Source of the DNA: an uncultured Planctomycetia bacterium
GTDB lineage: Bacteria > Omnitrophota > Gorgyraeia > Tantalellales > Tantalellaceae
Assembly (NCBI GenBank): GCA_964421015.1
Contig: CAYQUS010000005.1
Span: 10,063-74,062, forward strand
Direction: 5' to 3'
Length of the DNA stretch: 64,000 nt
A program made the translations under genes and the position numbers. Shown here one piece after another: positions 438 through 15,486 of this stretch (the stretch's first letter is position 1; every line of letters begins with the position of its first letter). The notes under the pieces were generated by a model that had not been told where the DNA came from, ran no database searches, and worked only from the letters and a program-made list of their open reading frames with translations.

Positions 438-2054
438 ATGGCGAAGTACATATATGTTACGGGCGGCGTGGTCTCTAGTCTCGGAAAAGGCATAGCGTCG
501 GCCTCGATAGGAAAGATCCTTGAATGGGCCGGGTACAAGGTAGCTATAGTTAAATGCGATCCTTACATAAACGTTGATCCCGGGACCATGAACCCGTACC
601 AGCACGGGGAAGTATACGTTACCGACGACGGCGCCGAAACCGATCTTGATCTGGGGCATTATTACCGCTATACGCGCTCCCCGCTTTCCAGAATAAACAA
701 TATCACCACCGGGAAAGTATACCAGAACGTTATAAATATGGAGAGAAAAGGGGACTTCCTGGGGGACACAGTACAGGTCATACCGCATATAACCAACGAG
801 ATAAAGTCGCTTATCCGCCGCGCGGAAAAGGAATATAAGGTAGACATAGTGCTTGTGGAAATAGGCGGTACGGCGGGTGATATAGAGAGCCTTCCTTTCC
901 TTGAGGCCATAAGGCAGATGAAAAATGAACTTCCGGCGGGGGATTCCGTTAACATACACCTGACGCTCCTGCCGTACATAAAGTCCGCGGGAGAGATGAA
1001 GACCAAGCCCACTCAGCATTCGGTCGGTAAACTTAGGGAGATAGGTATACAGCCCGAGATACTGATGGTGCGGACGGAAAGGCCGCTGGAGGATTCCTCG
1101 AGGGCTAAGATAGCCCTTTTCTGTAACGTACGGAAAGAATGCGTCATCGAGGCCCGCGACGTTGATAACGTGTATGAGATACCGCTTAAGTTCAGGGAGA
1201 GCGGCCTGGATAAGATAATAATGGACCTTTTAAGGATAAAGAAAAAACGCGACTACCGCGACCGCAACTGGGAAAAGGTGATCCTCGCCGCTAAAAAAAC
1301 CGAGAAAAAAGTCAAAATAGGTATAGTGGGAAAATATATAACATTGCAGGACGCCTACAAGTCAATAGACGAGGCGCTCAAGCATGCCGCTATAACCGCG
1401 GGATTAAAGCTGGAGCTGGTTAAGATAGAATCGGACGATCTTGAGAAGAAAAGCCCGGAGGCGCTGGAAAGTATCTTTGAAGGGGTTTCAGGTATTCTTG
1501 TCCCGGGAGGGTTCGGTTCCCGCGGGATAGCGGGTAAAATGGCCGCGGCCAGATATGCCAGGGAAAAAGCTTTGCCTTATTTCGGGATATGTCTGGGGAT
1601 GCAGGTGGCTGTTATGGAATTCGCCCGCAACGTATGCGGGCTCAGCGGAGCTGATTCTACTGAGTTCAGGCCGGGCACACGCTATCCTGTTATATCGCTT
1701 CTTTCTGAGCAAAAGAACACAAGGATGATGGGCGGGACAATGAGATTGGGCGAGTACCGCTGCGATCTTTCAAGCGGCAGCAAGGCCAGGGCATCTTACG
1801 GGAAGGCTTCTGTAATGGAGAGGCACCGTCACCGGTACGAGTTTAACGGGGACTACAAGAAACTTTTCGAGAAAAAGGGAATGCTCTTAAGCGGTATACA
1901 TCCCAAAGGAAAGCTGGTCGAGATAGTAGAGATAAAAGACCACCCGTGGTTCGTGGCTGTCCAGTTCCATCCGGAATTCAAGTCGAGGCCCGATGAGCCG
2001 CATCCCCTTTTCAGGGATTTTGTGGCGGCTGCCGGCAGAATTTCGTTGACATGA
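438..2054 (+). CDS. pyrG: CTP synthase
   Basis: N-terminus MAKYIYVTGGVVSSLGKGI is the CTP synthase signature. A C-terminal glutamine amidotransferase domain is present (GICLGMQ, HRHRYE). 538 aa. Confidence 0.95.
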   Translation: MAKYIYVTGGVVSSLGKGIASASIGKILEWAGYKVAIVKCDPYINVDPGTMNPYQHGEVYVTDDGAETDLDLGHYYRYTRSPLSRINNITTGKVYQNVINMERKGDFLGDTVQVIPHITNEIKSLIRRAEKEYKVDIVLVEIGGTAGDIESLPFLEAIRQMKNELPAGDSVNIHLTLLPYIKSAGEMKTKPTQHSVGKLREIGIQPEILMVRTERPLEDSSRAKIALFCNVRKECVIEARDVDNVYEIPLKFRESGLDKIIMDLLRIKKKRDYRDRNWEKVILAAKKTEKKVKIGIVGKYITLQDAYKSIDEALKHAAITAGLKLELVKIESDDLEKKSPEALESIFEGVSGILVPGGFGSRGIAGKMAAARYAREKALPYFGICLGMQVAVMEFARNVCGLSGADSTEFRPGTRYPVISLLSEQKNTRMMGGTMRLGEYRCDLSSGSKARASYGKASVMERHRHRYEFNGDYKKLFEKKGMLLSGIHPKGKLVEIVEIKDHPWFVAVQFHPEFKSRPDEPHPLFRDFVAAAGRISLT

Positions 2055-2109
2055 ACCCGTAATGATGTTATAATCAGCTCAACAAAGATGTTGACACAGC
2101 GGCTACGTG

Positions 2110-2140
2110 GCCCCGGTTTTAAGTCGGGGCTTTTTTATTT
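2110..2140 (+). terminator. Rho-independent terminator after pyrG
   Basis: Stem GCCCCGG/CGGGGC (2110-2130) followed by a TTTTTT tract. Confidence 0.6.
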
Positions 2141-2253: not shown

Positions 2254-2505
2254 ATGCCGGAGGCAAGGCTTTTGTCCTCCCGGGGAGCGGTTATGGAAGA
2301 TATAGACAGGATGTTCCTTATGATAGGCCGCGGAAAGGTGTATAATAAGGTGATAAATGACACTGAAAAGATGCTTATCGAAGGTGCCCTCGCCAGGGCT
2401 TTCGGTAACCAGTCTATCGCGGCCAAGATACTGGGCATAAACAGGAACACCATGAGGGCAAAGGTAAGAAAACTCGGGATAGATCCCAGAAAATTCAGGA
2501 TATAA
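2254..2505 (+). CDS. Small Fis-family HTH DNA-binding protein
   Basis: C-terminus GNQSIAAKILGINRNTMRAKVRKLGI matches the Fis/NtrC HTH_8 helix-turn-helix (compare Fis [25 protein letters not shown]). The start may instead be the internal ATG at 2293 (MEDIDR), which has a GGGAG RBS. Confidence 0.6.
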   Translation: MPEARLLSSRGAVMEDIDRMFLMIGRGKVYNKVINDTEKMLIEGALARAFGNQSIAAKILGINRNTMRAKVRKLGIDPRKFRI

Positions 2506-2518
2506 AGCGGGGAAAAAT

Positions 2519-5500
2519 ATGAGAAGTCCGAATCTTCCGGTCAAGCAGGGGTTATACGATCCGGCTTTCGAACATGACAGCTGCGGAGTAGGTTTTGTAT
2601 GCGACATCAAAGGCAGAAAATCGCATGATGTTGTTGCTAAAGGGCTTGAAGTCCTCGAAAGGATGAGCCATAGGGGAGCCGTAGGCGCGGACCCAAGAAC
2701 CGGGGACGGAGCGGGTGTGCTGATCCAGATACCGCACGCTTTTTTCGCGGACGAGTTCAGGAAAAAAGGCCTTACGCTGCCGGGCGAAGGAGAGTACGGA
2801 GCGGGAGTGGTTTTCCTGCCTCAGAACAGCAAGTGCAGGGAAAATTGCGAAAAAATAGTGAAAGAGGCCGCGGAAGAAGAGGGGCAGGTTTTTATAGGAT
2901 GGCGGGACGTTCCGGTTGATGAGACCATAATAGGGAAAGTAGCCAAGATAACGCAGCCTGTTATAAGACAGGTTTTTATAGGCAAAGGTTTGTCGTGCCC
3001 TGACGATAAGGCTTTTGAGAGGAAACTTTACGTAATACGGAAGGTGGCTGAAAACCGGATAGAGGCTTCAGATATCCCGGAGAAAGACTTTTTTTACATG
3101 ACCGGGCTTTCCTCCAAAAAAATAATTTACAAAGGGCTTTTAATGCCGGAACAGGTGGGGCCTTACTTCCCGGACCTGCGGAACAGCCTTATTTCCAGCG
3201 CTCTTGCTCTTGTCCACTCGAGGTACAGCACGAATACTTTCCCGACCTGGGACCTTGCACAGCCTTTCCGGTATCTGGCGCATAACGGGGAGATAAATAC
3301 GCTGAGAGGTAATATTAACTGGTTCCGTTCCGGAGAGAGGCTCCTGGCATCCAAGCTTTTCGGCAACGATATATCAAAGGTAAAACCTGTGATAGTCGAG
3401 GGGGGTAGCGATTCTGCCGCTATAGACAATGTTTTCGAGCTGCTTACGCTGAGCGGAAGGCCTCTTCAACACGCGATGATGATGCTTATTCCCGGTTCCT
3501 GGGAGCATGATGCTTCCCTGGATGAGAAGGTGAAGGATTTTTACGCCTACCACGCCTGCTTTATGGAACCATGGGACGGTCCCGCAGCCATAGCCTTTAC
3601 CGACGGAAAAGATATAGGTGCGGTCCTGGACAGGAACGGCCTTAGGCCCGCAAGGTACATAATAACCAAAAAAGATCTTGTGGTCATGTCCTCAGAGGTG
3701 GGGGTGCTGGATATCTCTCCTGGAGAAATAGCTGTTTCGGGAAGGCTGGAACCTGGGAAAATGTTCTTTATCGATACTTCCGCCGGCAGGGTCGTGGGCG
3801 ATGAGGAGATAAAAAAGACGCTTGCCTCTTCCAGTCCATACGGTAAATGGCTGGGGGAGAACATCGTTGACGTCGAAGAACTTCCCTCTTCGGCGGCAGG
3901 GGACAGAAAACCCGCCGACCTTACCAGGATGCTCAAGTGTTTCGGGTATTCCAGGGAGGATCTCGGGGTGATACTTAAGCCCATGGCAGAAGAGGGAAAA
4001 GAGCCCGTGGGCTCGATGGGTAACGATATCCCACACGCTTTTCTCTCGAAAAGGCCGCAGCTTCTTTTCGATCATTTTAAGCAGCTCTTTGCCCAGGTTA
4101 CCAATCCCGCCATAGATCCAATAAGGGAAGATGTGGTAATGAGCATGGAAACTTATATAGGAACAGGCGGGAATATACTTGAGGAGTTACCCGGGCATTG
4201 CAGAAAGCTCAGGTTAACCGATCCCGTACTTTCCGACGAGGAAACTTCGCGGATAAAACATGTCAATTCGGATGTTTTCAGGGCAAAAACGGTATATGTC
4301 TTTTTTGATCCCGAGAGAGAGAACGATTTCGCCAAAGCCATAGACAGGATATGCTACGAGGCCTCTTTCGCGGTTGAGGAGGGTTATAGCTTTCTTATAC
4401 TGAGCGACCGTGGGCTGAACTCCGAGAAAGCGGCTTTACCTTCTCTTCTCGCCCTTAGCGCCGTGCATCAGCATCTTGTAAGGAGTTCGGTGAGAACCCA
4501 GATAAGCATAATAGTGGAAAGCGGAGAGCCTCGCGAAGTGAATCATTTCGCGCTGCTTTTGGCTTATGGCGCGGACGCCGTTAATCCGTATCTTGCTTAT
4601 GAGGCTATAAGGGATATGGCAAGAAGAGGTGAAGTGTCCTGCGGCGTGGACAAGGCCGAAAAAAATTACCGCAAGGCTCTGGAAGCCGGGATACTGAAGA
4701 TACTTTCCAAAATGGGGATATCAACGCTGCGCAGTTACAAGGGAGCGCAGATATTCGAGGCGCTTGGACTGGACAGCGACGTTGTGGAAAAATTCTTCAC
4801 CAACACGGCCTCGAGGATCGGGGGCGTGGGGCTTCTCGGTATCAGGAAGGACGCTGTTGAAAGACACACGGCGGCATATCTGGTCCCGGAAGGCGCAGGT
4901 AGGGACATACTTCCGTCGGGAGGGGTATATCAGTGGAAAAGGGACGGCGAGTTCCATCTGTGGAACCCCGAAAGCATAGCGGCGTTGCAGGACTCTGTCA
5001 GAAAAGGGGATTACTCCGGGTACAGGAAATTCGCGGCGCTTATAGACGATCAGTCGGGTAACCCGGCTACCATAAGGAGTCTTTTCAAATTCATCAAAAG
5101 GGAGCCCGTTCCTATAGAACAGGTCGAACCCGTTGAGAGCCTTCTTAAAAGGTTCGCTACGGGGGCGATGAGTTTCGGTTCCATAAGCAGGAACGCTCAT
5201 GAGACCATAGCGATAGCCATGAACCGTATCGGGGGGAGGTCAAACACGGGCGAGGGAGGGGAGGACCCGGCGAGGTTCATACCTCTTCCGAATGGAGATT
5301 CGCGCAAGAGCGCCATAAAACAGGTAGCTTCCGGAAGGTTCGGCGTTACGGCGAATTATCTTGTTAATGCCGACGAGATACAGATAAAAATATCTCAGGG
5401 CGCTAAACCGGGCGAAGGAGGCCAGCTTCCCGGGCACAAGGTAAGCGCAATTATAGCCAGGACCAGGTACACCACTCAGGGGGTTACGCTGATCTCGCCT

Positions 5501-7051
5501 CCGCCGCATCATGACATATATTCGATAGAGGACCTGGCGCAGCTTATATTTGATCTTAAAAGCGTGAATCCTATGGCAAGAGTGAGTGTCAAGCTTGTTT
5601 CCGAGGTGGGAGTAGGGACTGTAGCGGCCGGAGTGGCCAAGGGCCACGCCGACATGATACTGATATCCGGAGGGGACGGCGGAACAGGAGCTTCTCCCAG
5701 GACGTCGATACGGCATGCCGGACTTCCCTGGGAATTAGGGCTTTCGGAAACCCATCAGACTCTGGTGCTTAACAATTTAAGGAACAGGGTGCGGTTACAG
5801 ACCGACGGTCAGATGCGTACAGGAAGAGACGTGGCTCTTGCCGCCATACTGGGCGCGGAGGAGTTCGGGTTCTGCACGGCCGTTCTTATAACCCTGGGAT
5901 GCGTGATGCTAAGGCACTGTCACCTCAATAACTGTTCGGTAGGAGTGGCTACCCAGGATGAGCTTCTAGAGAAAAGGTTTTCCGGCAGGCCGGAATATGT
6001 TGTCAATTACATGAACTTTATAGCGATGCATCTAAGAGAGATCATGGCGGATCTGGGTGTGACAAAACTGGACGACCTTGTGGGGAGGACGGATCTTGTG
6101 GAGGTAAACAAGGACATACTCCCTGAAAAAGCAAAAAACACCGATCTTTCTCAGATACTTTACCGCCCACGGACGCCGGAAAGTCTGCTTGGAATAAACG
6201 TGGACGGCGGGAGCGGCGTAAACAGGAACATGCTTGACGAGACCATAATACGATTGTCCGCCGAAGCCATAAATAGCGGAACTCCGGTAGAGATGGACCT
6301 TGATATACACAATCACGACAGGGCCGTGGGAGCCAGGCTCAGCGGGAAAGTCTGCAGGGAACATGGGGAGCAGGGTCTGGGTGAAGATACCATAAGGTGC
6401 CGGTTTAAAGGGTTCGCCGGGCAGAGCTTTGGGGCGTTTCTCGCCAGAGGCGTCACTTTTGAGCTTTCCGGCATGGCCAACGATTATGTGGGTAAAAGCA
6501 TTTCGGGAGGAAAAATAATCGTGTATCCCGGAAGGGGGGCTTCATACAAGGCCGAAGAAAATGTCATAATAGGTAACACCTGTTTTTACGGAGCGATATC
6601 GGGGGAGGCTTACATAAGAGGCCGCGCCGGTGAAAGGTTCTGTGTCAGGAATTCCGGTCTTTACGCCGTTGTAGAGGGGCTGGGGGATCATGGTTGCGAG
6701 TATATGACCGGGGGCAGGGTCGTTGTACTGGGTAAGACAGGCAGGAATTTTGCCGCCGGCATGTCAGGGGGTATAGCCTATGTCTACGACAAGAAAAAGG
6801 AACTTAAGGGCAAATGCAATATGGAAATGGTGGAGCTTGAGGCTCTTAACCAGGATGACAGGACAATGGTATACGGTCTTTTGCGGAGCCATCATGTGAA
6901 TACGTCAAGCTCGGTTGCCGGATACATACTTGAGAACTTTTCCTCGGAGATAGAAGCTTTTATAAAAGTAATGCCTGTGGAGTATAAGCGGGTGATGGCG
7001 GCAAGGGAGATGGAAGAGAAGATGGGGCTAGGGGAGGCTTCCGATGGGTGA
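2519..7051 (+). CDS. gltB: Glutamate synthase large subunit
   Basis: 1510 aa. The N-terminal Ntn-amidotransferase Cys motif CGVGFV is present, followed by FMN/Fe-S central and C-terminal GXGXG domains typical of GltB. Confidence 0.95.
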   Translation: MRSPNLPVKQGLYDPAFEHDSCGVGFVCDIKGRKSHDVVAKGLEVLERMSHRGAVGADPRTGDGAGVLIQIPHAFFADEFRKKGLTLPGEGEYGAGVVFLPQNSKCRENCEKIVKEAAEEEGQVFIGWRDVPVDETIIGKVAKITQPVIRQVFIGKGLSCPDDKAFERKLYVIRKVAENRIEASDIPEKDFFYMTGLSSKKIIYKGLLMPEQVGPYFPDLRNSLISSALALVHSRYSTNTFPTWDLAQPFRYLAHNGEINTLRGNINWFRSGERLLASKLFGNDISKVKPVIVEGGSDSAAIDNVFELLTLSGRPLQHAMMMLIPGSWEHDASLDEKVKDFYAYHACFMEPWDGPAAIAFTDGKDIGAVLDRNGLRPARYIITKKDLVVMSSEVGVLDISPGEIAVSGRLEPGKMFFIDTSAGRVVGDEEIKKTLASSSPYGKWLGENIVDVEELPSSAAGDRKPADLTRMLKCFGYSREDLGVILKPMAEEGKEPVGSMGNDIPHAFLSKRPQLLFDHFKQLFAQVTNPAIDPIREDVVMSMETYIGTGGNILEELPGHCRKLRLTDPVLSDEETSRIKHVNSDVFRAKTVYVFFDPERENDFAKAIDRICYEASFAVEEGYSFLILSDRGLNSEKAALPSLLALSAVHQHLVRSSVRTQISIIVESGEPREVNHFALLLAYGADAVNPYLAYEAIRDMARRGEVSCGVDKAEKNYRKALEAGILKILSKMGISTLRSYKGAQIFEALGLDSDVVEKFFTNTASRIGGVGLLGIRKDAVERHTAAYLVPEGAGRDILPSGGVYQWKRDGEFHLWNPESIAALQDSVRKGDYSGYRKFAALIDDQSGNPATIRSLFKFIKREPVPIEQVEPVESLLKRFATGAMSFGSISRNAHETIAIAMNRIGGRSNTGEGGEDPARFIPLPNGDSRKSAIKQVASGRFGVTANYLVNADEIQIKISQGAKPGEGGQLPGHKVSAIIARTRYTTQGVTLISPPPHHDIYSIEDLAQLIFDLKSVNPMARVSVKLVSEVGVGTVAAGVAKGHADMILISGGDGGTGASPRTSIRHAGLPWELGLSETHQTLVLNNLRNRVRLQTDGQMRTGRDVALAAILGAEEFGFCTAVLITLGCVMLRHCHLNNCSVGVATQDELLEKRFSGRPEYVVNYMNFIAMHLREIMADLGVTKLDDLVGRTDLVEVNKDILPEKAKNTDLSQILYRPRTPESLLGINVDGGSGVNRNMLDETIIRLSAEAINSGTPVEMDLDIHNHDRAVGARLSGKVCREHGEQGLGEDTIRCRFKGFAGQSFGAFLARGVTFELSGMANDYVGKSISGGKIIVYPGRGASYKAEENVIIGNTCFYGAISGEAYIRGRAGERFCVRNSGLYAVVEGLGDHGCEYMTGGRVVVLGKTGRNFAAGMSGGIAYVYDKKKELKGKCNMEMVELEALNQDDRTMVYGLLRSHHVNTSSSVAGYILENFSSEIEAFIKVMPVEYKRVMAAREMEEKMGLGEASDG

Positions 7052-8489
7052 TGTAAGAGGATTTCTTAAAGTGCGGAGAAAAGAGGCTTCATACCGGCCC
7101 GTATGCGAGAGGGTGGAGGATTTTGAGGAAGTGGCGGTGCCGCTTACTTCGGAAGAGGCTTCACATCAGGCTTCAAGATGCATGGACTGCGGGACGCCGT
7201 TCTGTCATTGGGGGTGTCCGCTCGGGAACCAGATACCCGAGTGGAACGATCTGGCCTTCAAGGGGGAATGGGAAAAGGCCTTCCGCCTGTTATCGTCCAC
7301 TAACAATTTCCCGGAAATAACGGGACGCGTCTGCCCGGCGACATGCGAATACTCATGCGTGCTCGGCATAAACGACGAGCCTGTAACGATACGGCAGAAT
7401 GAACTTTCGATTATAGAGAAGGCCTTCGACGCGGGGATGGTAAAGCCTAGGGTAAGGGAAAGAAGGACCGGGAAAAAAATTTTTGTTGTTGGGTCGGGAC
7501 CTGCCGGCCTGGCCTGCGCCGATCAGCTTAACAAGGCTGGGCATGATGTGACTCTTTACGAGAAGGACGATAAATCCGGGGGGCTTTTACGTTACGGCAT
7601 CCCCCAGTTTAAGCTTGATAAAAGAGTTCTGGACAGGCGATTAGAGCTTATGAGAAAAGAAGGTATTGAGTTCGTTACAGGTATGCTCGTGGGCAGGGAT
7701 ATTCCGTCCGGCGAGCTTTTGTCAAAGGCCGACGCGCTGTGTCTGGCTCTGGGGTCGGGCTGCCCAAGGGACATCCCCATCGAGGGAAGGGATCTTAACG
7801 GGATACACTTCGCGATGGAGTATCTGACACAAGGCAATAGGATAGCCGCGGGGGAAAAGATACCCGCGGATAAGCTCATATCGGCCGAAGGTAAAAAAGT
7901 CGTTGTTATAGGGGGAGGCGACACCGGGTCGGATTGCGTCGGGACGGCCAATAGGCAAAAAGCGGCATGTGTTGTGCAGATAGAGCTTCTTCCCAAACCT
8001 CCCGATCAGCGGACGGAGGAATATCCGTGGCCGAGGTATCCGGTGGTCCTTAAGACCTCTTCCAGCCACGAGGAAGGAGCGTCGAGGGAATGGGCCGTAC
8101 TTACAAAAAGGTTCCTGGGAAGAGCGGGAAAAGTTACCGGTCTTGAGTGCGCGAGGGTGGAGTTCGTGAAGTCGCCTGTTACGGGGCGCTTAGAGATGAA
8201 AGAGATGGAGAATAGTCGGTTCCCCGTAGAGGCCGATCTTGTTATAATAGCCGCGGGTTTCGTTCATCCGGAACAGGGCGGCATAGTTTCCGAGCTCGGT
8301 CTGGAACTCGATGAAAGGAAGAACATAAAGACCGGGCAGGAGATGATGACCAGCGTGAAGAAGGTTTTTTCCGCGGGGGACAGTAGAAGAGGCCAGTCCC
8401 TTGTTGTCTGGGCCATATCTGAGGGGAGAAAATGCGCCCATAACATAGACAAGTATCTTATGGGGCGAAGTTTTCTGCCGTTCATGTGA
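7044..8489 (+). CDS. gltD: Glutamate synthase small (NADPH) subunit
   Basis: Fe-S Cys cluster CMDCGTPFCH...GCP and two dinucleotide-binding motifs (VVGSGPAGLA; VIGGGDTG). Overlaps the gltB stop by 8 nt, consistent with translational coupling. Confidence 0.9.
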   Translation: MGDVRGFLKVRRKEASYRPVCERVEDFEEVAVPLTSEEASHQASRCMDCGTPFCHWGCPLGNQIPEWNDLAFKGEWEKAFRLLSSTNNFPEITGRVCPATCEYSCVLGINDEPVTIRQNELSIIEKAFDAGMVKPRVRERRTGKKIFVVGSGPAGLACADQLNKAGHDVTLYEKDDKSGGLLRYGIPQFKLDKRVLDRRLELMRKEGIEFVTGMLVGRDIPSGELLSKADALCLALGSGCPRDIPIEGRDLNGIHFAMEYLTQGNRIAAGEKIPADKLISAEGKKVVVIGGGDTGSDCVGTANRQKAACVVQIELLPKPPDQRTEEYPWPRYPVVLKTSSSHEEGASREWAVLTKRFLGRAGKVTGLECARVEFVKSPVTGRLEMKEMENSRFPVEADLVIIAAGFVHPEQGGIVSELGLELDERKNIKTGQEMMTSVKKVFSAGDSRRGQSLVVWAISEGRKCAHNIDKYLMGRSFLPFM

Positions 8490-8573
8490 GGATAATATTT
8501 GTGACATGCCGGCGTGGCGAAAAAGGTTTGATAAAGGTCTATAACAGCGAGGCACAGGTTCACGGGAGGGAGC

Positions 8574-11150
8574 ATGATAAGTACCGGATTCAAAAATCTA
8601 GATGATGTCATAACCGGACTTAGGACGGGAGATAACGTTGTATGGCAGGTTGACGACATAAAGGAATACAGGGAATATGTCGATAATTTCGTACGGGAGT
8701 CCCTGTCATCCGGAAAGAAAGTCATATATATGAGGTTCGCCGGGCACGACGACCTTGTCAAACCATCGGAAGGGGTTTCCATATACAAGCTTGACTCGCA
8801 TGAGGGGTTTGAAAGTTTCTCTACAGAGGTTAACGCGATAATAACCAGGGAAGGCGTAGGGGTACATTATGTTTTTGACAGTCTTTCCGATCTTCTCCCG
8901 GCGTGGGCTACCGACCTTATGATAGGCAATTTTTTTATGGTTACCTGCCCGTATCTCTATGAACTTGACACCGTTGCTTATTTCGCCCTTATACGCAACT
9001 ACCATTCTTATAAGACAATAGCCCGCATACGCGAGACCACCCAGCTTCTTATAGACGTTTATGACTGTAACGGTGAGTTCTACGTGCACCCTCTTAAGGT
9101 CTGGAACAGATATTCTCCGACAATGTTCCTTCCGCATCTCAAACAGGCGGACAAGTTCACTCCTATAACTGACAGCGTTGAAGCCACAAGAGCCCTATGC
9201 TATATGAAAAACCCCGTTATAGAGGCCGGGAAACGCAACCTGGATTACTGGGACAGGCTTTTTATGAAGGGGGAGGAGCTGTTGGACTCTAGCGCTCCGG
9301 CAGAAGAGATAAAAAAAATGATCTCCCTTTATTCGAACGTAATGATATCCAAGGATGCCAAGATACTTTCTCTGGTGGAAGACAACTTTTCACTGGAGGA
9401 CCTTCTTGAGATAAAAGCCAGGATGATAGGAACGGGTATAATCGGAGGGAAAGCCGTAGGTATGCTGCTGGCTCGAAAACTGCTTTCTAAAAACCCGGAA
9501 CTCAAATGGGAGAAATGGTCGGAGCCGCACGATTCGTTTTACATAGGGTCTGATGTTTTTTACAGCTATATCGTGCAGAACGGATGGTGGAAACTGAGGC
9601 TTGAGCAGAAAACGGAAAAAGGATATTTCGAGGCAGCGCGCGTGCTCGGGGAAAAGATGCTGCACGGCAAATTCCCCGAGGAGATAAGGGACCAGTTCCA
9701 GAGGATAATGGAATATTTCGGGCAGTCGCCGATAATAGTGAGGTCTTCCAGCCTTCTTGAGGACGGGTTCGGTAACGCTTTTGCGGGCAAGTATGACAGT
9801 TTCTTTCTGTCTAATCAGGGAACCCCCGAAGAGAGGTTCATAAAGTTCGCAGAGGCCGTACGAAAGATATACGCCAGCACGATGAGCGAGGACGCTCTTG
9901 TCTACAGGAAGCAGCGGGGCCTTGATAAGCTCGACGAGCAGATGGCACTTCTTGTGCAGAGAGTCTCGGGGGCGTATCACGAGGACAGATTTTTCCCTGA
10001 TATGGCCGGGGTGGGGATATCATATAACACTTACGTATGGAGCAAAGATATGTCTCCCGAGGCCGGGATGCTGAGAATAGTCATGGGTCTTGGGACAAGG
10101 GCGGTAAATCGGGTCGAGGGTGATTATCCCAGGATAACAGCACTTGATAAACCTTTACTGAGGCCGCATGCCGGCCGCAATGACCTTGTCAAGTATTCGC
10201 AAAGAGAGGTTGACGTCATTGATATAGCCAGGAACTCTTTTGAGACCGTTCCGCTTGACGATGTTTCCTCGGCACCGGATGTTCAGCACTTGATGGACAC
10301 CATAGCCGAACGAGATCACGAGGGAATGAGGATGATGGCGGAAAGGGGCATGAACAGGGAAGCTCCGTGGATAATAACTTTTGATAGTTTTTTTTCGCGC
10401 GGCGATTTCATAGAAAAAATGAAGCTGATGATGAAAACGCTGGAAAAAGGATACAATTATCCCGTGGATATTGAGTTCACGGTTAACCTTACGGAAGGAG
10501 GGTACGCGGTAAATCTTCTGCAGTGCCGGCCTCTTCAGACGAGGGGGTTGGGCAAAAAGGTCGAAATACCTTCCGATATCAAAAAAGATAAGGTTATGTT
10601 CTCTTCCGGAGGGTACTTTTTCGGCGGGAATATTTCTCAGGATATACACTCCATAATATACGTGGATCCGGCCGGGTACATAGCTCTTTCGGAAAGCGGG
10701 AAGTACGATATCGCCCGGGCGGTGGGAAAACTTAACCGGAAAATATCCGGCAGGAATTCTTCTCCCACGCTTCTTTTCGGGCCGGGAAGATGGGGGACAT
10801 CCACCCCGTCGCTCGGGGTTCCCGTGAGCTTTTCCGAGATAAACAATATAGCGGTGCTCGCCGAGATATCTTTTTCCGGGGGCAACCTTATGCCGGAACT
10901 TTCTTTCGGAACTCATTTTTTCCAGGATCTTGTGGAAACGGAAATATTCTACGCGGCGATATTCCCCGAAAGAAAGGACACATACTACGACTCTTCGTGG
11001 ATGTCAGGTCTTAAGAATATGTTCGCGTCGGAACTCGAAGAATACGCCAAGTACAGCAATGTTATAGGGGTCTATGACGTAAAAGGCAAGGGGCTTAAAA
11101 TGCTCTCTGACGTCATGACCCAGAAAATGGTCTGTTATTACACTATTTAA
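8574..11150 (+). CDS. PPDK_N-domain protein (PEP synthase/pyruvate phosphate dikinase-type ATP-binding domain) with a degenerate RecA/KaiC-like N-terminal domain
   Basis: GGKAVGM, IIVRSSSLLEDGFGNAFAGKYDSF and DIEFTVNL...LLQCRPLQ match the PPDK_N/ATP-grasp signatures (GGKxxN; RSSAxxED; DIEFaidGklyiLQaRP). The N-terminus GFKNLDDVITGLRTGDNVVWQVDD resembles a KaiC/RadA fold without a Walker A motif. Confidence 0.6.
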   Translation: MISTGFKNLDDVITGLRTGDNVVWQVDDIKEYREYVDNFVRESLSSGKKVIYMRFAGHDDLVKPSEGVSIYKLDSHEGFESFSTEVNAIITREGVGVHYVFDSLSDLLPAWATDLMIGNFFMVTCPYLYELDTVAYFALIRNYHSYKTIARIRETTQLLIDVYDCNGEFYVHPLKVWNRYSPTMFLPHLKQADKFTPITDSVEATRALCYMKNPVIEAGKRNLDYWDRLFMKGEELLDSSAPAEEIKKMISLYSNVMISKDAKILSLVEDNFSLEDLLEIKARMIGTGIIGGKAVGMLLARKLLSKNPELKWEKWSEPHDSFYIGSDVFYSYIVQNGWWKLRLEQKTEKGYFEAARVLGEKMLHGKFPEEIRDQFQRIMEYFGQSPIIVRSSSLLEDGFGNAFAGKYDSFFLSNQGTPEERFIKFAEAVRKIYASTMSEDALVYRKQRGLDKLDEQMALLVQRVSGAYHEDRFFPDMAGVGISYNTYVWSKDMSPEAGMLRIVMGLGTRAVNRVEGDYPRITALDKPLLRPHAGRNDLVKYSQREVDVIDIARNSFETVPLDDVSSAPDVQHLMDTIAERDHEGMRMMAERGMNREAPWIITFDSFFSRGDFIEKMKLMMKTLEKGYNYPVDIEFTVNLTEGGYAVNLLQCRPLQTRGLGKKVEIPSDIKKDKVMFSSGGYFFGGNISQDIHSIIYVDPAGYIALSESGKYDIARAVGKLNRKISGRNSSPTLLFGPGRWGTSTPSLGVPVSFSEINNIAVLAEISFSGGNLMPELSFGTHFFQDLVETEIFYAAIFPERKDTYYDSSWMSGLKNMFASELEEYAKYSNVIGVYDVKGKGLKMLSDVMTQKMVCYYTI

Positions 11151-11258
11151 TCAGATCGATGGCGCGAAAAACGTATAAGAATTCTCTTGCCTTATGCCAA
11201 CAATTTGATACTATATCCCTGTAATTTACCCATTTATTTTGTCCAAAGGGAGGGCAAG

Positions 11259-11684
11259 ATGAGAAAAGTAACATTGTTATTAGCTGTACTGTGTCCTGTT
11301 TTATTGCTTCTTTCCGGCTGCGCGTCAACAGGCTCTAAAGAAATGGGGAGCCTGAAGAACAGGATGAACGCCTTGGAGGAAAGACAGGATGCTCTGGAGT
11401 CAAGGTCAAGAGCGGTCTCGACGGATGTGTCTTATGTGTCGGCCGTTGAGAGGCCCGCGCCGTATACCAGCGGATCTTCAAGCAGCCAGACGTCATCGGT
11501 GATGACAAAGACCGATGTACAAAGGGCGCTGAAAAACGCCGGTTACTACGACGGGTCTATAGACGGTAAAATAGGGCCCAAGACACGTAAGGCCATAACG
11601 GATTTCCAGGCGGCAAAAGGCCTGAAAGTCGACGGAGTTGTGGGTCCCGCTACCAAAGCGGCGTTATCGAAGTATTTGCAGTAA
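11259..11684 (+). CDS. Lipoprotein with C-terminal peptidoglycan-binding domain
   Basis: Signal peptide plus lipobox LLLSGC, and a C-terminal PG_binding_1-like repeat (GYYDGSIDGKIGPKTRKAITDFQAAKGLKVDGVVGPAT). Starts at ATG 11259, preceded by a GGGAGGG RBS; the track ORF begins further upstream at 11187. Confidence 0.7.
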   Translation: MRKVTLLLAVLCPVLLLLSGCASTGSKEMGSLKNRMNALEERQDALESRSRAVSTDVSYVSAVERPAPYTSGSSSSQTSSVMTKTDVQRALKNAGYYDGSIDGKIGPKTRKAITDFQAAKGLKVDGVVGPATKAALSKYLQ

Positions 11685-11859: not shown

Positions 11860-12702
11860 ATGCACAAAATAGTTTTCAAAAAACAGCTTAATCCCGAGAT
11901 ATGTCTTGTTGAATTCGAGGCCGGGGATCTTGCGGCCGCGGCTAAAGCCGGACAGTTCGTCATACTGCGCGTGGATGAGAAGGGAGAAAGGTTCCCTCTT
12001 ACAATATACGATTTTAACGTTACCAAGGGCACGGTTACGGTTGTTTGCCAGGCGGTGGGTGTAAGCACAAAGAAGCTTTGCGCTCTTAACCAGGGAGAAA
12101 GCATTCTTGATGTCGCCGGGCCTCTTGGCCACGCTACGGCCACGGAAAATATAGGCAAGGTTATCTGTATAGGCGGAGGTGTGGGTACCGCTGAGGCTTT
12201 TCCTATAGCGCGCGCGATGAAAGAGGCGGGCAACGACGTGACGGTCATAATAGGGGCCCGCAATTCGGGTCTTGTCATATGCGAAAAAGAAATAAGGGAG
12301 TTCTGCGATAAGGTGCATGTTACAACAGACGACGGTTCGTACGGAAGGAAGGGTTTTGTCACGGATGTCCTGAGCGAGCTCATAAAAGCCTCTAGGTATG
12401 ATCTGGTTTTCGCCATAGGCCCTGTTCCCATGATGAAAAGGGTCGCGGATGTTACAAGAGGCGAGAACATAAAGACAATGGTGTCGCTTAATTCCATAAT
12501 GATAGACGGTACAGGCATGTGCGGGGGATGCCGCCTCAAATATGACGGCAAACCAAGTTTTGCCTGTGTGGACGGGCCTGAATTTGACGCGCATCTGGTG
12601 GATTTCGACGACCTTATGAAACGGGGATCGAGATATAAAGACAAAGAAAAAAGGGCCAACGAGCATTACGGCGAAAAATGCAGGATAGGTCTGGGAAAAT
12701 AA
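11860..12702 (+). CDS. NfnA/SudB-like ferredoxin-NADP+ reductase subunit (PyrK-like FAD/[2Fe-2S] protein)
   Basis: 280 aa. Has a PyrK/FNR-like fold and a C-terminal Cys cluster CGGCRLKYDGKPSFAC. It sits directly 5' of a GltD-like subunit, which is the NfnAB/SudAB arrangement. Confidence 0.7.
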   Translation: MHKIVFKKQLNPEICLVEFEAGDLAAAAKAGQFVILRVDEKGERFPLTIYDFNVTKGTVTVVCQAVGVSTKKLCALNQGESILDVAGPLGHATATENIGKVICIGGGVGTAEAFPIARAMKEAGNDVTVIIGARNSGLVICEKEIREFCDKVHVTTDDGSYGRKGFVTDVLSELIKASRYDLVFAIGPVPMMKRVADVTRGENIKTMVSLNSIMIDGTGMCGGCRLKYDGKPSFACVDGPEFDAHLVDFDDLMKRGSRYKDKEKRANEHYGEKCRIGLGK

Positions 12703-12718
12703 ATTTTTCGGAGAAAAA

Positions 12719-14119
12719 ATGGCTGACAAGGTAAAAATGCGAGAGAGAGCGGCGAAGGAACGGGTCAAGGATTTTGCCGAGGTCCCTTACGGGTATAACG
12801 AAGAGGAAGCGGTCGCGGAGGCCTCGAGGTGCCTCGGATGCAAGACGGCTCCCTGTGTTTCAGGATGCCCCGCCGAAGTGAACATCCCGGCTTTTATAAA
12901 GATGATAAAGGAAAGAAAGTTCGACGAGGCTGTAGCCGTGATCAAAAAGACCAACACGCTTCCGGCGGTATGCGGCAGGGTGTGTCCCCAGGAAGACCAA
13001 TGCGAGAAAAATTGCGTGCTGGCAAAAGCGGGAAGGCCCATCGATATAGGGTCTCTGGAAAGGTTCGCAGCCGATCATGAACGGGCGAAAAAAAAGGGTT
13101 CAAGCGCGAGTTCAGGTCCAGTAAGTAACAGCAAGGGACAGAAGGTAGCCGTTATAGGGTCCGGGCCCGCCGGTCTTACGGCGGCGGCCGATCTTGCCAG
13201 GATGGGTTACAGTGTTACGGTATTCGAGGGGCTCCATAAACCCGGAGGGGTACTTACTTACGGCATTCCGGAATTCAGGCTGCCCAAAGAAATAGTGATG
13301 CTGGAGGTAGAGGGCATAAAGTCTCTGGGCGTTGAAGTGAAATACAATTACGTCATAGGCAAGATAAAGACCATAGAGGGGCTCAGGAAGGAAGGGTTTA
13401 AGGCTTTCTTTATATGCACCGGAGCCGGGCTTCCCTCGTTCATGGGAATAGAAGGCGAGAACCTTCCGGGAGTATACTCGGCCAACGAATTTCTGACCAG
13501 GGTAAATCTTATGAAGGCCTACAGTTTCCCGGAATATGATACACCTGTCAATATAGGGGCTAAAGTGGCCGTGATAGGCGCCGGTAACGTGGCTATGGAC
13601 TCTGCCAGATGCGCTCTCCGCCTGGGAGCGGAAAAAGTCTACATAGTCTACCGCAGGACCGAAGAGGAAATGCCGGCAAGGCTTGACGAGATACACCACG
13701 CGATGGAAGAAGGTGTGGAATTCCACCTTTTAACAACGCCTGTAAAAATATTGGGCGACGAAAAAGGCGAAATAAAGGGAATGGAATGTATAAAGAACTC
13801 TCTCGGCGAACCGGATTCAAGCGGCAGAAGAAGGCCGGTGCCGATAAAAGGGTCTGAGTTCGAGATGGCTGTTGATACTGTGATCGTGGCAATCGGCAAC
13901 GGGCCGAACCCGCTTCTTCTGAATACCGTTAACGGACTTGAACTCACAAAGTGGGGCAATATAAAGGCCGATGACGACGGAAGAACATCGGTTCGTGATA
14001 TTTTTGCCGGAGGAGATATAGTGACGGGAGCGGCTACGGTCATAGCCGCCATGGGCGCCGGGAAAAAGGCAGCCCGGACCATTGATAGTTATCTCTCGGG
14101 GAAAACCGGAGAGAAGTGA
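12719..14119 (+). CDS. NfnB/SudA-like (GltD-family, 'homotetrameric NADPH glutamate synthase GltA'-type) oxidoreductase
   Basis: Two Fe-S Cys motifs (CLGCKTAPCVSGCP; CGRVCPQEDQCEKNC) and two Rossmann motifs (VIGSGPAGL; VIGAGNVAMD). 466 aa. Confidence 0.75.
   Translation: MADKVKMRERAAKERVKDFAEVPYGYNEEEAVAEASRCLGCKTAPCVSGCPAEVNIPAFIKMIKERKFDEAVAVIKKTNTLPAVCGRVCPQEDQCEKNCVLAKAGRPIDIGSLERFAADHERAKKKGSSASSGPVSNSKGQKVAVIGSGPAGLTAAADLARMGYSVTVFEGLHKPGGVLTYGIPEFRLPKEIVMLEVEGIKSLGVEVKYNYVIGKIKTIEGLRKEGFKAFFICTGAGLPSFMGIEGENLPGVYSANEFLTRVNLMKAYSFPEYDTPVNIGAKVAVIGAGNVAMDSARCALRLGAEKVYIVYRRTEEEMPARLDEIHHAMEEGVEFHLLTTPVKILGDEKGEIKGMECIKNSLGEPDSSGRRRPVPIKGSEFEMAVDTVIVAIGNGPNPLLLNTVNGLELTKWGNIKADDDGRTSVRDIFAGGDIVTGAATVIAAMGAGKKAARTIDSYLSGKTGEK

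Positions 14120-14148: not shown

Positions 14149-15486
<1,338 letters not shown>

What the first reader, a model, noticed from the sequence alone, without database searches (positions are those of the whole stretch)
8574..11150. Paralogous 858-aa PPDK_N protein with a Walker-less KaiC/RecA-like N-domain, inserted between gltBD and the Nfn-gdhA nitrogen module
The protein has GGKAVGM, IIVRSSSLLEDGFGNAFAGKYDSF and DIEFTV...LLQCRPLQ, the PEP synthase/PPDK ATP-binding domain signatures. No PEP-utilizer His domain is recognisable. The N-terminal roughly 200 aa (GFKNLDDVITGLRTGDNVVWQVDD) looks like a KaiC/RadA-type domain that has lost its P-loop. It shares the PPDK_N head with the giant REC-array protein downstream, which suggests a functional pair: the same kinase-like domain in a short and a giant context. 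Its position next to the glutamate synthase, Nfn and GDH genes may indicate regulation of carbon/nitrogen status.
Basis: partly seen in the sequence, partly recalled or inferred. Interest (0 to 1): 0.55.

Follow-up and report, generated by a model that had tools for sequence, protein, structure and literature searches.

The report
Uncharacterised ATP-grasp protein in nitrogen-assimilation cluster
This gene encodes a member of a very large, highly conserved but unstudied protein family (a dead KaiC-like domain, a working ATP-binding domain of the PEP-synthase type, and an unknown domain with one invariant histidine) that sits next to the glutamate/glutamine-making genes in several bacterial phyla, so it is a good candidate for an unrecognised player in nitrogen assimilation.

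Summary
The ORF 8574-11150 (+, 858 aa) is real and intact. Only PPDK_N (aa 289-671, E 8e-50) is recognised. There is no phosphohistidine swivel domain and no PEP/pyruvate domain. The C-terminal ~190 aa folds confidently, matches nothing known, and carries the family's only invariant histidine (His781). The protein is not a close paralog of the giant REC protein downstream: they share only the Pfam domain, and the giant gene was absent from the fetched flanks of all 80 related loci.

The striking result is genomic. In 62 of 72 related loci (mainly Omnitrophota) a glutamate/glutamine gene lies directly adjacent, usually gltB-gltD-X followed by carA or pyrG. In a second, diverged clade (Kiritimatiellota, Verrucomicrobia, Lentisphaerae) 33 of 69 loci have gdhA, gltBD or glnA directly adjacent, in all orientations, and some have NrpR or a LysR regulator as neighbour. 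Clostridial and Desulfobacterota members lack this context.

Best reading: an ATP-driven, dikinase-type phosphotransfer protein tied to the glutamate/glutamine node, probably regulatory like VadK. No publication on this family was found.

The parts
8574..11150 (+). Gene X: 858-aa three-domain protein of the uncharacterised 'PEP/pyruvate-binding domain-containing protein' family
   Evidence: ORF and translation. There are more than 8000 homologs, and the listed short-form (~860-aa) hits align over 100% of the query at 62-85% identity.
8564..8572 (+). Shine-Dalgarno-like GGGAGGGAG just upstream of the ATG
   Evidence: Read directly from the sequence.
8574..9173 (+). N-terminal KaiC/FlaH-like RecA-fold domain (aa 1-200), a pseudo-ATPase with no Walker A motif; Asp102 sits where I infer the Walker B aspartate would be
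   Evidence: AF2 pLDDT is mostly 70-92. Foldseek matches KaiC at E 3e-8 and FlaH with TMt 0.63. Conservation of G5, G19, N21 and D102 and the absence of GK[ST].
9174..9437 (+). Helical linker (aa 201-288)
   Evidence: Helices at 201-282 in the AF2 model. No Pfam hit.
9438..10586 (+). PPDK_N ATP-grasp nucleotide-binding domain (aa 289-671) with K293, R390, S409, E634, Q650 and R652 conserved
   Evidence: Pfam E 8.3e-50. Profile hits to the ATP-grasp parts of PEPS, Rph and HpeI. These residues are conserved in at least 97% of 53 diverse members. Residue roles come from Rph-Lm Lys22, Arg117 and Thr136.
10587..11147 (+). C-terminal alpha/beta domain (aa 672-858) with no detectable relatives; motifs GPGRWG[TS][ST][TS]PxLGVPV and P[ED]LSxG[TS]HFFQDLVE
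   Evidence: AF2 of the domain alone gives pLDDT 85.2 and pTM 0.86. Foldseek against the PDB gives a best E of 0.14. No Pfam or PDB sequence match. Motif conservation.
10914..10916 (+). Codon of His781, the only histidine conserved across the whole family and the candidate phospho-carrier
   Evidence: Present in 52 of 53 diverse members. It lies at the N-terminus of helix 781-788, behind a low-confidence glycine-rich loop.
2254..2505 (+). Small Fis-type HTH protein (83 aa) directly upstream of gltB
   Evidence: ORF with the motif ...GNQSIAAKILGINRNTMRAKVRKLG.... The equivalent ORF in related loci hits HTH_8 and sits at position -3 in 18 loci.
2519..7051 (+). gltB, glutamate synthase large subunit
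   Evidence: Pfam GATase_2, Glu_syn_central, Glu_synthase and GXGXG.
7044..8489 (+). gltD, glutamate synthase small subunit, the conserved upstream neighbour of X
   Evidence: Pfam. TIGR01317 scores 653 bits against a cutoff of 448. Directly upstream on the same strand in 47 loci.
11187..11684 (+). PG_binding_1 protein, not a conserved neighbour
   Evidence: Pfam. Found in only 2 of 80 loci.
11860..14119 (+). NfnA-like (11860-12702) and NfnB/'GltA'-like (12719-14119) oxidoreductase pair
   Evidence: NF004862 and TIGR01316 both score above their cutoffs. The pair recurs beside X and gdhA in other clades.
14149..15486 (+). gdhA, NADP-specific glutamate dehydrogenase
   Evidence: NF006929 scores 785 bits against a cutoff of 536. 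It is the commonest direct neighbour of X in the second clade.
438..2054 (+). pyrG, CTP synthase (glutamine amidotransferase); it lies directly downstream of X in many related loci
   Evidence: Pfam. At position +1 in 19 loci.

Best explanation
Gene X is an intact member of a very large, uncharacterised three-domain family.

Shown:
- An N-terminal KaiC/FlaH-like RecA-fold domain that lacks the P-loop.
- A complete PpsA/Rph-type ATP-grasp domain that keeps every residue known to position the ATP polyphosphate.
- A ~190-aa alpha/beta C-terminal domain with no detectable relatives. It carries the only family-wide invariant histidine (His781), placed at the N-terminus of a helix behind a glycine-rich loop.
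- Conserved embedding in the ammonium-assimilation gene cluster (Fis-type HTH, gltB, gltD, X, then carA/carB/pyrG/purF; elsewhere gdhA, glnA, NfnAB-like genes, NrpR or a LysR regulator) in Omnitrophota, Elusimicrobia, Auribacterota, Spirochaetota, Kiritimatiellota, Verrucomicrobia and Lentisphaerae.

Inferred: X works as an ATP-driven dikinase-type phosphotransfer protein. ATP binds in the ATP-grasp domain. A phosphoryl or pyrophosphoryl group is passed to His781 on the mobile loop of the C-domain, which here replaces the canonical swivel domain. The phosphorylated protein then acts on the glutamate/glutamine node. The most likely mode is a post-translational regulator that binds or phosphorylates GOGAT, GDH, GS or their regulator, in the way the truncated PPDK VadK regulates the methylcitrate-cycle enzymes it binds. 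The dead KaiC-like domain would provide oligomerisation or a docking or effector-binding surface.
For: Architecture.

The ATP site appears intact. K293, R390, S391-393, E396, D397, K406, S409, E634, Q650 and R652 are conserved in at least 97% of 53 members that are 32-81% identical to X. They correspond to Rph-Lm Lys22, Arg117 and Thr136, which are needed for the first phosphotransfer.

His781 is present in 52 of 53 members and is the only histidine among the 58 near-invariant positions.

In the ~1470-aa long forms the unit 'ATP-grasp + C-domain' occurs once without the N-domain, and both motifs are kept. This marks it as the catalytic unit.

Neighbourhood, set 1 (genome loci, mainly Omnitrophota): 62 of 72 loci have a Glu/Gln gene at +-1. 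gltD is directly upstream on the same strand in 47, with a median gap of 12 nt.

Neighbourhood, set 2 (metagenome loci, about 40% identical to X): 33 of 69 loci have such a gene at +-1. gdhA is adjacent in co-directional, divergent and convergent orientations. By contrast only 9 of 212 genes lying 4 or more positions away are Glu/Gln genes. Recurrent regulator neighbours are NrpR (7 loci) and LysR (11 loci). In the Kiritimatiellales isolates S94 and B12219, nrpR and X lie on the same strand about 45 nt apart, divergent from gdhA.

Other arrangements: GATase_2-X-glnA-Glu_synthase (L071) and X-purF-carA-carB (L075).

Precedent: VadK is a truncated PPDK that autophosphorylates on a histidine and binds pathway enzymes (PMC13400623).

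The window shows no terminator-like site between gltB, gltD and X.
Against: No canonical phosphohistidine domain is present. The C-domain shows no fold or sequence similarity to swivel domains, so phosphotransfer to His781 is an inference from conservation and local secondary structure only.

I could not measure the distance between His781 and the ATP site in the model. The full-length model is only moderate (pLDDT 70.9), and the motif loops are low-confidence.

Members in Clostridia (5 of 6 contexts) and the Desulfobacterota/Geobacter long forms have no nitrogen-gene neighbours.

Within Omnitrophota the gene order could partly reflect shared descent.

Nothing distinguishes a regulatory role from a small-molecule enzymatic role.
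Confidence: 0.5

Rival explanations
1. X is a metabolic small-molecule dikinase of the glutamate/glutamine node. It would use ATP to phosphorylate a metabolite such as L-glutamine (on the amide N, as the Campylobacter L-glutamine kinase Cj1418 does), glutamate, 2-oxoglutarate or 5-oxoproline. The C-domain would be the substrate-binding or phospho-carrier domain.
For: Characterised PPDK_N enzymes other than VadK (PEPS, PPDK, Rph, HpeHI, prodiginine ligases) phosphorylate or activate small molecules. [quoted passage not shown] X is as conserved as the neighbouring enzyme: 62-65% identity for X against about 65% for GltB in the same loci. A HAD hydrolase recurs nearby in 7 loci.
Against: No known central pathway needs such a reaction. 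X is adjacent to transcription regulators (NrpR, LysR) and to different enzymes (GDH, GOGAT or GS) in different lineages, which fits a regulator at least as well. No substrate-binding domain resembling that of any characterised dikinase was found.
Confidence: 0.25
2. The nitrogen-cluster position is inherited gene order without a functional link. X would have a general, unrelated role (for example energy or carbon sensing) in anaerobes.
For: Clostridial members and the Desulfobacterota long forms are monocistronic in unrelated contexts. One long form lies between an alpha-amylase-family gene and pgi.
Against: The association recurs with different partners and in all orientations, in clades only about 40% identical to one another. 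In set 2 Glu/Gln genes fill 35 of 126 directly adjacent positions, against 9 of 212 positions 4 or more genes away.
Confidence: 0.12
3. One reading: X and the giant REC-array protein (22066-30441) are paralogs that form a functional pair, with the same kinase head in a short and a giant context.
For: Both carry a PPDK_N domain and lie 11 kb apart on the same strand.
Against: BLASTP aligns only 63 aa, E 0.007. Family-specific HMMs do not hit the giant ORF at E<=10. No relative of the giant lies in the fetched flanks of any of the 80 related loci, although in the closest locus the flank ends before its expected position. PPDK_N is a common domain of Omnitrophota giant proteins in general.
Confidence: 0.03
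4. X is a canonical PEP synthase, PPDK or rifampin phosphotransferase.
For: [quoted passage not shown]
Against: There is no PEP-utilizers domain and no PEP-utilizers_C domain. All NCBIfam equivalog scores are far below their cutoffs, for example 67.9 against 883 and 34 against 999. PDB similarity is limited to the ATP-grasp part.
Confidence: 0.02

Closest known systems
Rifampin phosphotransferase (Rph-Lm, PDB 5hv3/5fbs) and PEP synthase / PPDK
   Same: They share a homologous ATP-grasp (PPDK_N) domain with conserved polyphosphate-binding Lys, Arg and Ser/Thr residues. Like Rph, X has no PEP/pyruvate TIM-barrel domain.
   Different: X has no swivel phosphohistidine domain (no GGxTSH motif), no RIF-binding domain and no PEP/pyruvate domain. 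It has an extra KaiC-like N-domain and a C-domain with no detectable relatives. NCBIfam scores are far below the family cutoffs.
VadK (Rv1127c) of Mycobacterium tuberculosis, a truncated PPDK acting as a regulatory histidine kinase (PMC13400623)
   Same: It is a PPDK-derived protein without the PEP/pyruvate domain that regulates the enzymes of a pathway by binding them. It autophosphorylates on a histidine. This is the best functional analogy for X.
   Different: VadK keeps the canonical phosphohistidine domain (His422) and has no KaiC-like domain. Its target pathway is the methylcitrate cycle, not nitrogen assimilation. Homology beyond the ATP-grasp domain was not shown here.
L-glutamine kinase Cj1418 of Campylobacter jejuni (EC 2.7.3.13)
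   Same: It was formerly annotated as PEP synthase/PPDK and acts on glutamine, the metabolite shared by most neighbours of X.
   Different: It belongs to a capsule (MeOPN) biosynthesis cluster. No specific similarity to X was tested, and the neighbours of X are central-metabolism genes.
KaiC / FlaH (ArlH) RecA-superfamily ATPases
   Same: The fold of aa 1-200 matches (Foldseek E 3e-8 to KaiC; TMt 0.63 to FlaH). The N-terminal TGxxxLDxxxxG-type motif and Asp102, at the position I infer to be Walker B, are retained.
   Different: There is no Walker A GxxxxGK[ST]; the strand NVVWQ is followed by D/S-D/S-I-E/D. No sequence-level match was found in Pfam or in the PDB sequence searches. The domain is therefore a pseudo-ATPase.
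HpeHI hydroxyphenylethanone kinase (HpeI, PDB 9goj) and other two-component dikinases
   Same: HpeI is an ATP-grasp protein that lacks its own histidine domain and works with a partner. This shows that the phospho-carrier can be a different module.
   Different: No HpeH-like partner gene lies near X. The substrates are aromatic and the context is catabolic.

Membership tests
PEP synthase / PPDK (PEP-utilising enzymes) | N-terminal ATP-grasp nucleotide-binding domain (PF01326) | tested here: met
   PPDK_N at aa 289-671, E 8.3e-50. It is not N-terminal here.
PEP synthase / PPDK (PEP-utilising enzymes) | Swivel phosphohistidine domain (PF00391, GGxTSH motif) | tested here: not met
   No Pfam hit at E<=1 for the whole protein or at E<=10 for the C-domain. 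No such motif in the sequence. No fold match for the C-domain.
PEP synthase / PPDK (PEP-utilising enzymes) | C-terminal PEP/pyruvate-binding TIM barrel (PF02896) | tested here: not met
   No hit. The protein ends after the 190-aa C-domain.
PEP synthase / PPDK (PEP-utilising enzymes) | Score above the NCBIfam equivalog cutoffs | tested here: not met
   The best score is 67.9 bits against a cutoff of 883.
Rifampin phosphotransferase | NF041857 equivalog score, RIF-binding domain and C-terminal His swivel domain | tested here: not met
   34 bits against a cutoff of 999. PDB sequence matches to Rph cover only its ATP-grasp part.
KaiC/RecA-like ATPases | RecA-type alpha/beta fold | tested here: met
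   Foldseek matches KaiC chains at E 3e-8 to 1e-6 over about 220-230 columns with rmsd about 4.2, and FlaH 4yds with TMt 0.63.
KaiC/RecA-like ATPases | Walker A P-loop GxxxxGK[ST] | tested here: not met
   Strand 21-26 (NVVWQV) is followed by DDIKEY. There is no GK[ST] in any of 52 members.
KaiC/RecA-like ATPases | Walker B aspartate at the end of a hydrophobic strand | tested here: met
   In YVFD102SLS, the Asp is present in 52 of 52 members that have the domain. Its positional equivalence to Walker B is inferred from the fold and not from a residue-level superposition.
KaiC/RecA-like ATPases | Sequence-level family membership (Pfam KaiC/ATPase models) | tested here: not met
   No Pfam hit at E<=1. 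The PDB sequence searches returned no KaiC chain (phmmer at E<=1, profile of A3 at E<=10).
VadK-type truncated PPDK regulatory kinases | ATP-grasp domain plus canonical phosphohistidine domain, with no PEP/pyruvate domain | tested here: not met
   The ATP-grasp domain is present and the PEP/pyruvate domain is absent, but the canonical histidine domain is also absent.
VadK-type truncated PPDK regulatory kinases | Mg-ATP-dependent autophosphorylation on a histidine and binding to pathway enzymes | not testable with these tools
   This needs biochemistry. Only the invariant His781 and the intact ATP-site residues are shown here.
L-glutamine kinase (Cj1418) | Sequence membership and a MeOPN capsule gene context | not tested
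   No Cj1418 sequence or named model was available here. The context of X is central nitrogen metabolism, not capsule biosynthesis.
Uncharacterised ~860-aa family annotated 'PEP/pyruvate-binding domain-containing protein' | Full-length collinear similarity across all three modules | tested here: met
   The listed short-form (~860-aa) hits cover 100% of the query at 62-85% identity. Diverse members at 32-56% identity align end to end.

The most novel reading that the evidence does not exclude
X is the founding example of a previously unrecognised nitrogen-status signalling device. It would be a phospho-histidine dikinase with a degenerate KaiC-like module that post-translationally controls glutamate synthase, glutamate dehydrogenase, glutamine synthetase or NrpR. 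It would act in PVC-group bacteria, Elusimicrobia, Spirochaetota and possibly gut Clostridia, and would be a functional counterpart of GlnD/GlnE or PknG-GarA (that comparison rests on my own knowledge). Its histidine-carrying domain would be a new fold.
Probability: 0.3. Interest if true: 0.8.

Novelty: new variant of a known kind. Interest (0 to 1): 0.6.

Why it matters
The control of ammonium assimilation is textbook knowledge for enterics, Bacillus, actinobacteria, cyanobacteria and methanogens. It is essentially unknown for Omnitrophota, Kiritimatiellota, Elusimicrobia and many other anaerobes.

It is as conserved as GOGAT itself. It is wedged into the GOGAT/GDH/GS gene clusters of several phyla, and sometimes lies directly downstream of the 2-oxoglutarate-sensing repressor NrpR (that sensing role is from my own knowledge). 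It also occurs in abundant human-gut Lachnospiraceae such as Blautia and Roseburia.

The work gives the family a testable hypothesis (ATP-grasp to His781 phosphotransfer acting on the Glu/Gln node). It also identifies cultured hosts (Kiritimatiellales S94, Pontiellaceae B12219) in which the hypothesis could be tested. Finally, it corrects a widespread mis-annotation as 'phosphoenolpyruvate synthase / pyruvate, phosphate dikinase'.

Tried and rejected
1. Close paralogy with the giant ORF. Rejected by BLASTP and by family HMMs.
2. C-domain as a divergent PEP-utilizers swivel domain. Foldseek against the PDB gave nothing significant (best E 0.14). A profile against PDB sequences and Pfam at E<=10 also gave nothing. 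A by-eye resemblance of G[TS]H-helix-strand to GGxTSH-helix-strand remains only an idea.
3. N-domain and C-domain as a duplicated KaiC CI/CII-like pair. hhalign probability was 0.1%.
4. Building a swivel-domain profile from proteins in the fetched loci. No GGxTSH protein was present.
6. Defence-system membership. No PADLOC hit for X.
7. Carbohydrate link. One Geobacter long form lies between an alpha-amylase-family gene and pgi, but two other long forms have unrelated neighbours.
8. Literature. Searches on PPDK_N, the family name, KaiC-like plus ATP-grasp, and NrpR found no paper on this family. The two primary Cj1418 papers are not held.
9. Other architectures. The N-, ATP-grasp and C-domain HMMs found no other architecture among the ORFs of loci L001-L169.
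Full report
**1. Observation**

The ORF at 8574-11150 (+) exists, starts with ATG and encodes 858 aa. A GGGAGGGAG Shine-Dalgarno-like element ends one base before the ATG, and the gene starts 84 nt after the gltD stop.

Pfam recognises only PPDK_N, at aa 289-671 (E 8.3e-50). Nothing is recognised in aa 1-288 or 672-858. NCBIfam models for PEP synthase, rifampin phosphotransferase, and the PigC and RedH prodiginine ligases match only a ~100-aa core and score 10- to 40-fold below their cutoffs. PDB sequence searches find only the ATP-grasp parts of Rph, PEP synthase, HpeI and PPDK.

- pyrG, gltB and gltD upstream;
- a PG_binding_1 protein downstream;
- then an NfnA-like/NfnB-like pair, both scoring above the NCBIfam cutoffs for NF004862 and TIGR01316;
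- then NADP-gdhA.

The closest genome locus is an Omnitrophota MAG (L001). It is 81% identical and collinear from purF to the thi genes.

**2. Anatomy**

An AlphaFold2 model built from 38 homologs has mean pLDDT 70.9 and pTM 0.65. It shows four parts.

*Residues 1-200.* This is an alternating beta-alpha domain of good confidence. Foldseek against the PDB returns dozens of KaiC chains (best 7s65_B at E 3e-8, about 222 columns, rmsd 4.2 Å, 14-16% identity). It also returns the archaeal KaiC-like protein FlaH (4yds, TMt 0.63). It is not detectable at the sequence level. In 52 diverse members the first strand (NVVWQ) is followed by D/S-D/S-I-E/D-D/E-Y. No member has GxxxxGK[ST]. Asp102, in YVFDxLS, is invariant and lies where I infer the Walker B aspartate would be. 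The domain is therefore a pseudo-ATPase.

*Residues 201-288.* A helical linker.

*Residues 289-671.* This is the ATP-grasp domain. Across 53 members that are 32-81% identical to X, the residues K293, R390, S391-393, E396, D397, K406, S409, E634, Q650 and R652 are conserved in at least 97%. From the Rph alignment, R390 and S409 correspond to Rph-Lm Arg117 and Thr136. K293 lies in the GGK motif that holds Lys22. Rph-Lm needs all three residues to position the ATP polyphosphate for the first phosphotransfer (PMC4844700). The nucleotide site therefore looks functional.

*Residues 672-858.* Modelled alone, this part folds confidently (pLDDT 85.2, pTM 0.86). It has no significant structural match in the PDB (best E 0.14, probability 0.16). 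It has no Pfam or PDB sequence match even at E<=10 and is unrelated to the N-domain. It carries two strongly conserved motifs: GPGRWG[TS][ST][TS]PxLGVPV after strand 732-736, and P[ED]LSxG[TS]HFFQDLVE. In the second motif His781 opens helix 781-788. His781 is the only histidine among the 58 near-invariant positions of the family.

**3. The family**

The N-domain alone finds 867 clusters at the 50%-identity level, and those listed are either the same ~860-aa architecture or shorter sequences, probably fragments.

Members come from:
- Omnitrophota, Elusimicrobia, Auribacterota and Spirochaetota;
- Kiritimatiellota, Verrucomicrobia and Lentisphaerae, including the isolates S94 and Pontiellaceae B12219;
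- gut Clostridia (Blautia, Roseburia, Faecousia);
- Geobacter and its relatives.

In Geobacter sp. OR-1 and several unnamed metagenome sequences a ~1470-aa form exists. It consists of [ATP-grasp + C-domain] followed by [N-domain + ATP-grasp + C-domain], and both units keep all motifs. ATP-grasp plus C-domain is therefore the core unit, and the KaiC-like domain is an accessory.

[quoted passage not shown] I found no paper on the family.

**4. Genomic context, the main result**

*Set 1: 80 genome loci, mostly Omnitrophota.* Of these, 72 have X and at least one neighbour, and 62 of the 72 have a glutamate/glutamine gene directly adjacent. gltD lies directly upstream on the same strand in 47 loci, with a median gap of 12 nt, and gltB precedes it. 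Downstream come pyrG (19 loci) or carA (16), then carB and a purF-like gene. Upstream of gltB lie a small Fis-type HTH gene (18 loci), glnA or GSIII, and P-II. The window has the same small HTH ORF at 2254-2505.

Other arrangements occur:
- GATase_2-X-glnA-Glu_synthase (L071);
- X-purF-carA-carB in a Eubacteriales MAG (L075);
- nfnA-nfnB-gdhA-X (L054);
- X-gdhA in Spirochaetota (L055, L074).

*Set 2: 80 metagenome loci of a clade about 40% identical to X.* Of 69 loci with a neighbour, 33 have a Glu/Gln gene at +-1. gdhA accounts for 24 of these: 14 on the same strand as X (11 upstream, 3 downstream), 4 divergent and 6 convergent. The rest are gltBD, glnA, GSIII and an NfnB-like gene. Only 9 of 212 genes lying 4 or more positions away are Glu/Gln genes. 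Recurrent non-enzyme neighbours are a LysR regulator (11 loci) and NrpR (7 loci).

In the genomes of the Kiritimatiellales isolates the order is gltB gltD, then nfnB nfnA gdhA on the opposite strand, then nrpR and X about 45 nt apart on the forward strand.

The association therefore recurs with different partners and orientations in diverged clades. That argues for a functional link and not only for inherited synteny.

*Counter-examples.* Five of six clostridial contexts and three long-form contexts show no such neighbours.

*Operon structure in the window.* A perfect sigma-70 consensus promoter and a terminator follow pyrG. No terminator-like site separates gltB, gltD and X. Terminator-like sites follow the PG-binding ORF and gdhA. 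These are consensus matches only.

**5. The giant protein**

The 2791-aa ORF has a partial PPDK_N domain (E 2.7e-9) and a Response_reg domain. BLASTP with X aligns only 63 aa (E 0.007). HMMs built from the N-domain, ATP-grasp and C-domain of this family do not hit it even at E<=10. No relative of it lies in the fetched flanks of any of the 80 related loci, although the flank of the closest locus ends just before its expected position. PPDK_N is listed among the frequent intracellular domains of Omnitrophota giant proteins (bioRxiv 10.1101/2023.11.21.568195). The two proteins share a superfamily domain, and nothing more is supported.

**6. How it most likely works**

*Shown:* an intact ATP site of the dikinase type; no canonical carrier domain; a single invariant histidine in an unmatched domain; a dead KaiC-like domain; and conserved embedding among Glu/Gln genes and their regulators.

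*Inferred:* in the characterised PPDK_N enzymes I reviewed (PEPS, PPDK, Rph, VadK) the ATP-grasp domain passes the beta-phosphoryl group to a histidine. That histidine lies at a helix N-terminus behind a glycine-rich loop (PMC4844700). His781 has the same local setting. I therefore propose His781 as the carrier, with the C-domain replacing the swivel domain.

The phosphorylated protein would then act on the Glu/Gln node. I favour a regulatory role for three reasons:
- the partner enzyme varies between lineages (GOGAT, GDH or GS);
- regulators (NrpR, LysR, Fis-type HTH) are frequent neighbours;
- VadK of M. tuberculosis is a precedent. It is a truncated PPDK that autophosphorylates on His422 and binds methylcitrate-cycle enzymes to tune flux (PMC13400623).

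The main rival is a small-molecule dikinase. Its precedent is Cj1418, an L-glutamine kinase long mis-annotated as PEPS/PPDK (PMC10971088, PMC6429109). I cannot separate these two readings computationally.

**7. Verdict**

The protein is not a member of any characterised PPDK_N family. It belongs to a large uncharacterised family with a new domain architecture, which I rate as a new variant of a known kind. Interest is moderate to high because the family is widespread, highly conserved, mis-annotated, and consistently tied to central nitrogen assimilation in phyla whose nitrogen regulation is unknown.

Noticed in passing
window 22066-30441 (+): Giant 2791-aa ORF. Only two Pfam families are recognised: a partial PPDK_N (aa 148-397) and Response_reg (best stretch aa 2314-2370). 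A weak PADLOC hit to PDC-M60B (E 1e-6) falls on the REC part. Most of the protein is unannotated.
   Followed up: partly
window 46475-51844 (+) and 52117-56529 (+): Two more very long ORFs. The first (1789 aa) has only a Glyco_transf_5 (starch-synthase-like) region at aa 479-747. The second (1470 aa) has no Pfam domain at all.
   Followed up: no
window 2254-2505 (+): An 83-aa ORF with a Fis-type HTH (…GNQSIAAKILGINRNTMRAKVRKLG…) lies directly upstream of gltB. The equivalent HTH_8 ORF sits at the same place in 18 related Omnitrophota loci. It is a candidate dedicated regulator of the gltBD-X operon.
   Followed up: partly
window 2046-2131 (+): A perfect sigma-70 consensus promoter (TTGACA-17-TATAAT with a TG extension) overlaps the pyrG stop codon. 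A strong terminator-like hairpin follows immediately at 2109-2131. This order, promoter before terminator, is odd.
   Followed up: no
window 10779-10802 (aa 736-743 of X): The C-domain loop G736-P-G-R-W-G741-T-S fits GxxxxG[T][ST], a Walker-A-like pattern with Lys replaced by Thr, directly after a beta-strand. Several of the non-significant Foldseek hits of this domain are P-loop NTPases (Vps4, NSF, RAD51C, ABC transporter NBDs), all at probability below 0.2. This is unexplained.
   Followed up: partly
L081 10001-14419 (Geobacter sp. OR-1); also P0006-P0017: Long forms of about 1460-1500 aa consist of [ATP-grasp + C-domain] fused to a complete [N-domain + ATP-grasp + C-domain] unit. In Geobacter sp. 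OR-1 the gene lies between a 1149-aa alpha-amylase-family gene and pgi.
   Followed up: partly
L170 6948-10595 and L171 6950-10595 (Kiritimatiellales isolates S94 and B12219): nrpR (NRD1_2 plus a winged-helix domain) and X lie on the same strand about 45 nt apart, divergent from gdhA. gltB-gltD lie upstream, and in S94 nfnA-nfnB follow gdhA. This looks like a possible NrpR-X regulatory operon in cultured organisms.
   Followed up: partly
window 11187-11684 (+): A 165-aa PG_binding_1 protein is wedged between X and the NfnAB-like genes. It is shared with only 2 of 80 related loci (L001, L047), so it is a lineage-specific addition to the cluster.
   Followed up: no
L132 (metagenome locus): The ORF map of this contig shows the order gdhA, X, gdhA, X, which may be a local duplication of the two-gene module.
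   Followed up: no
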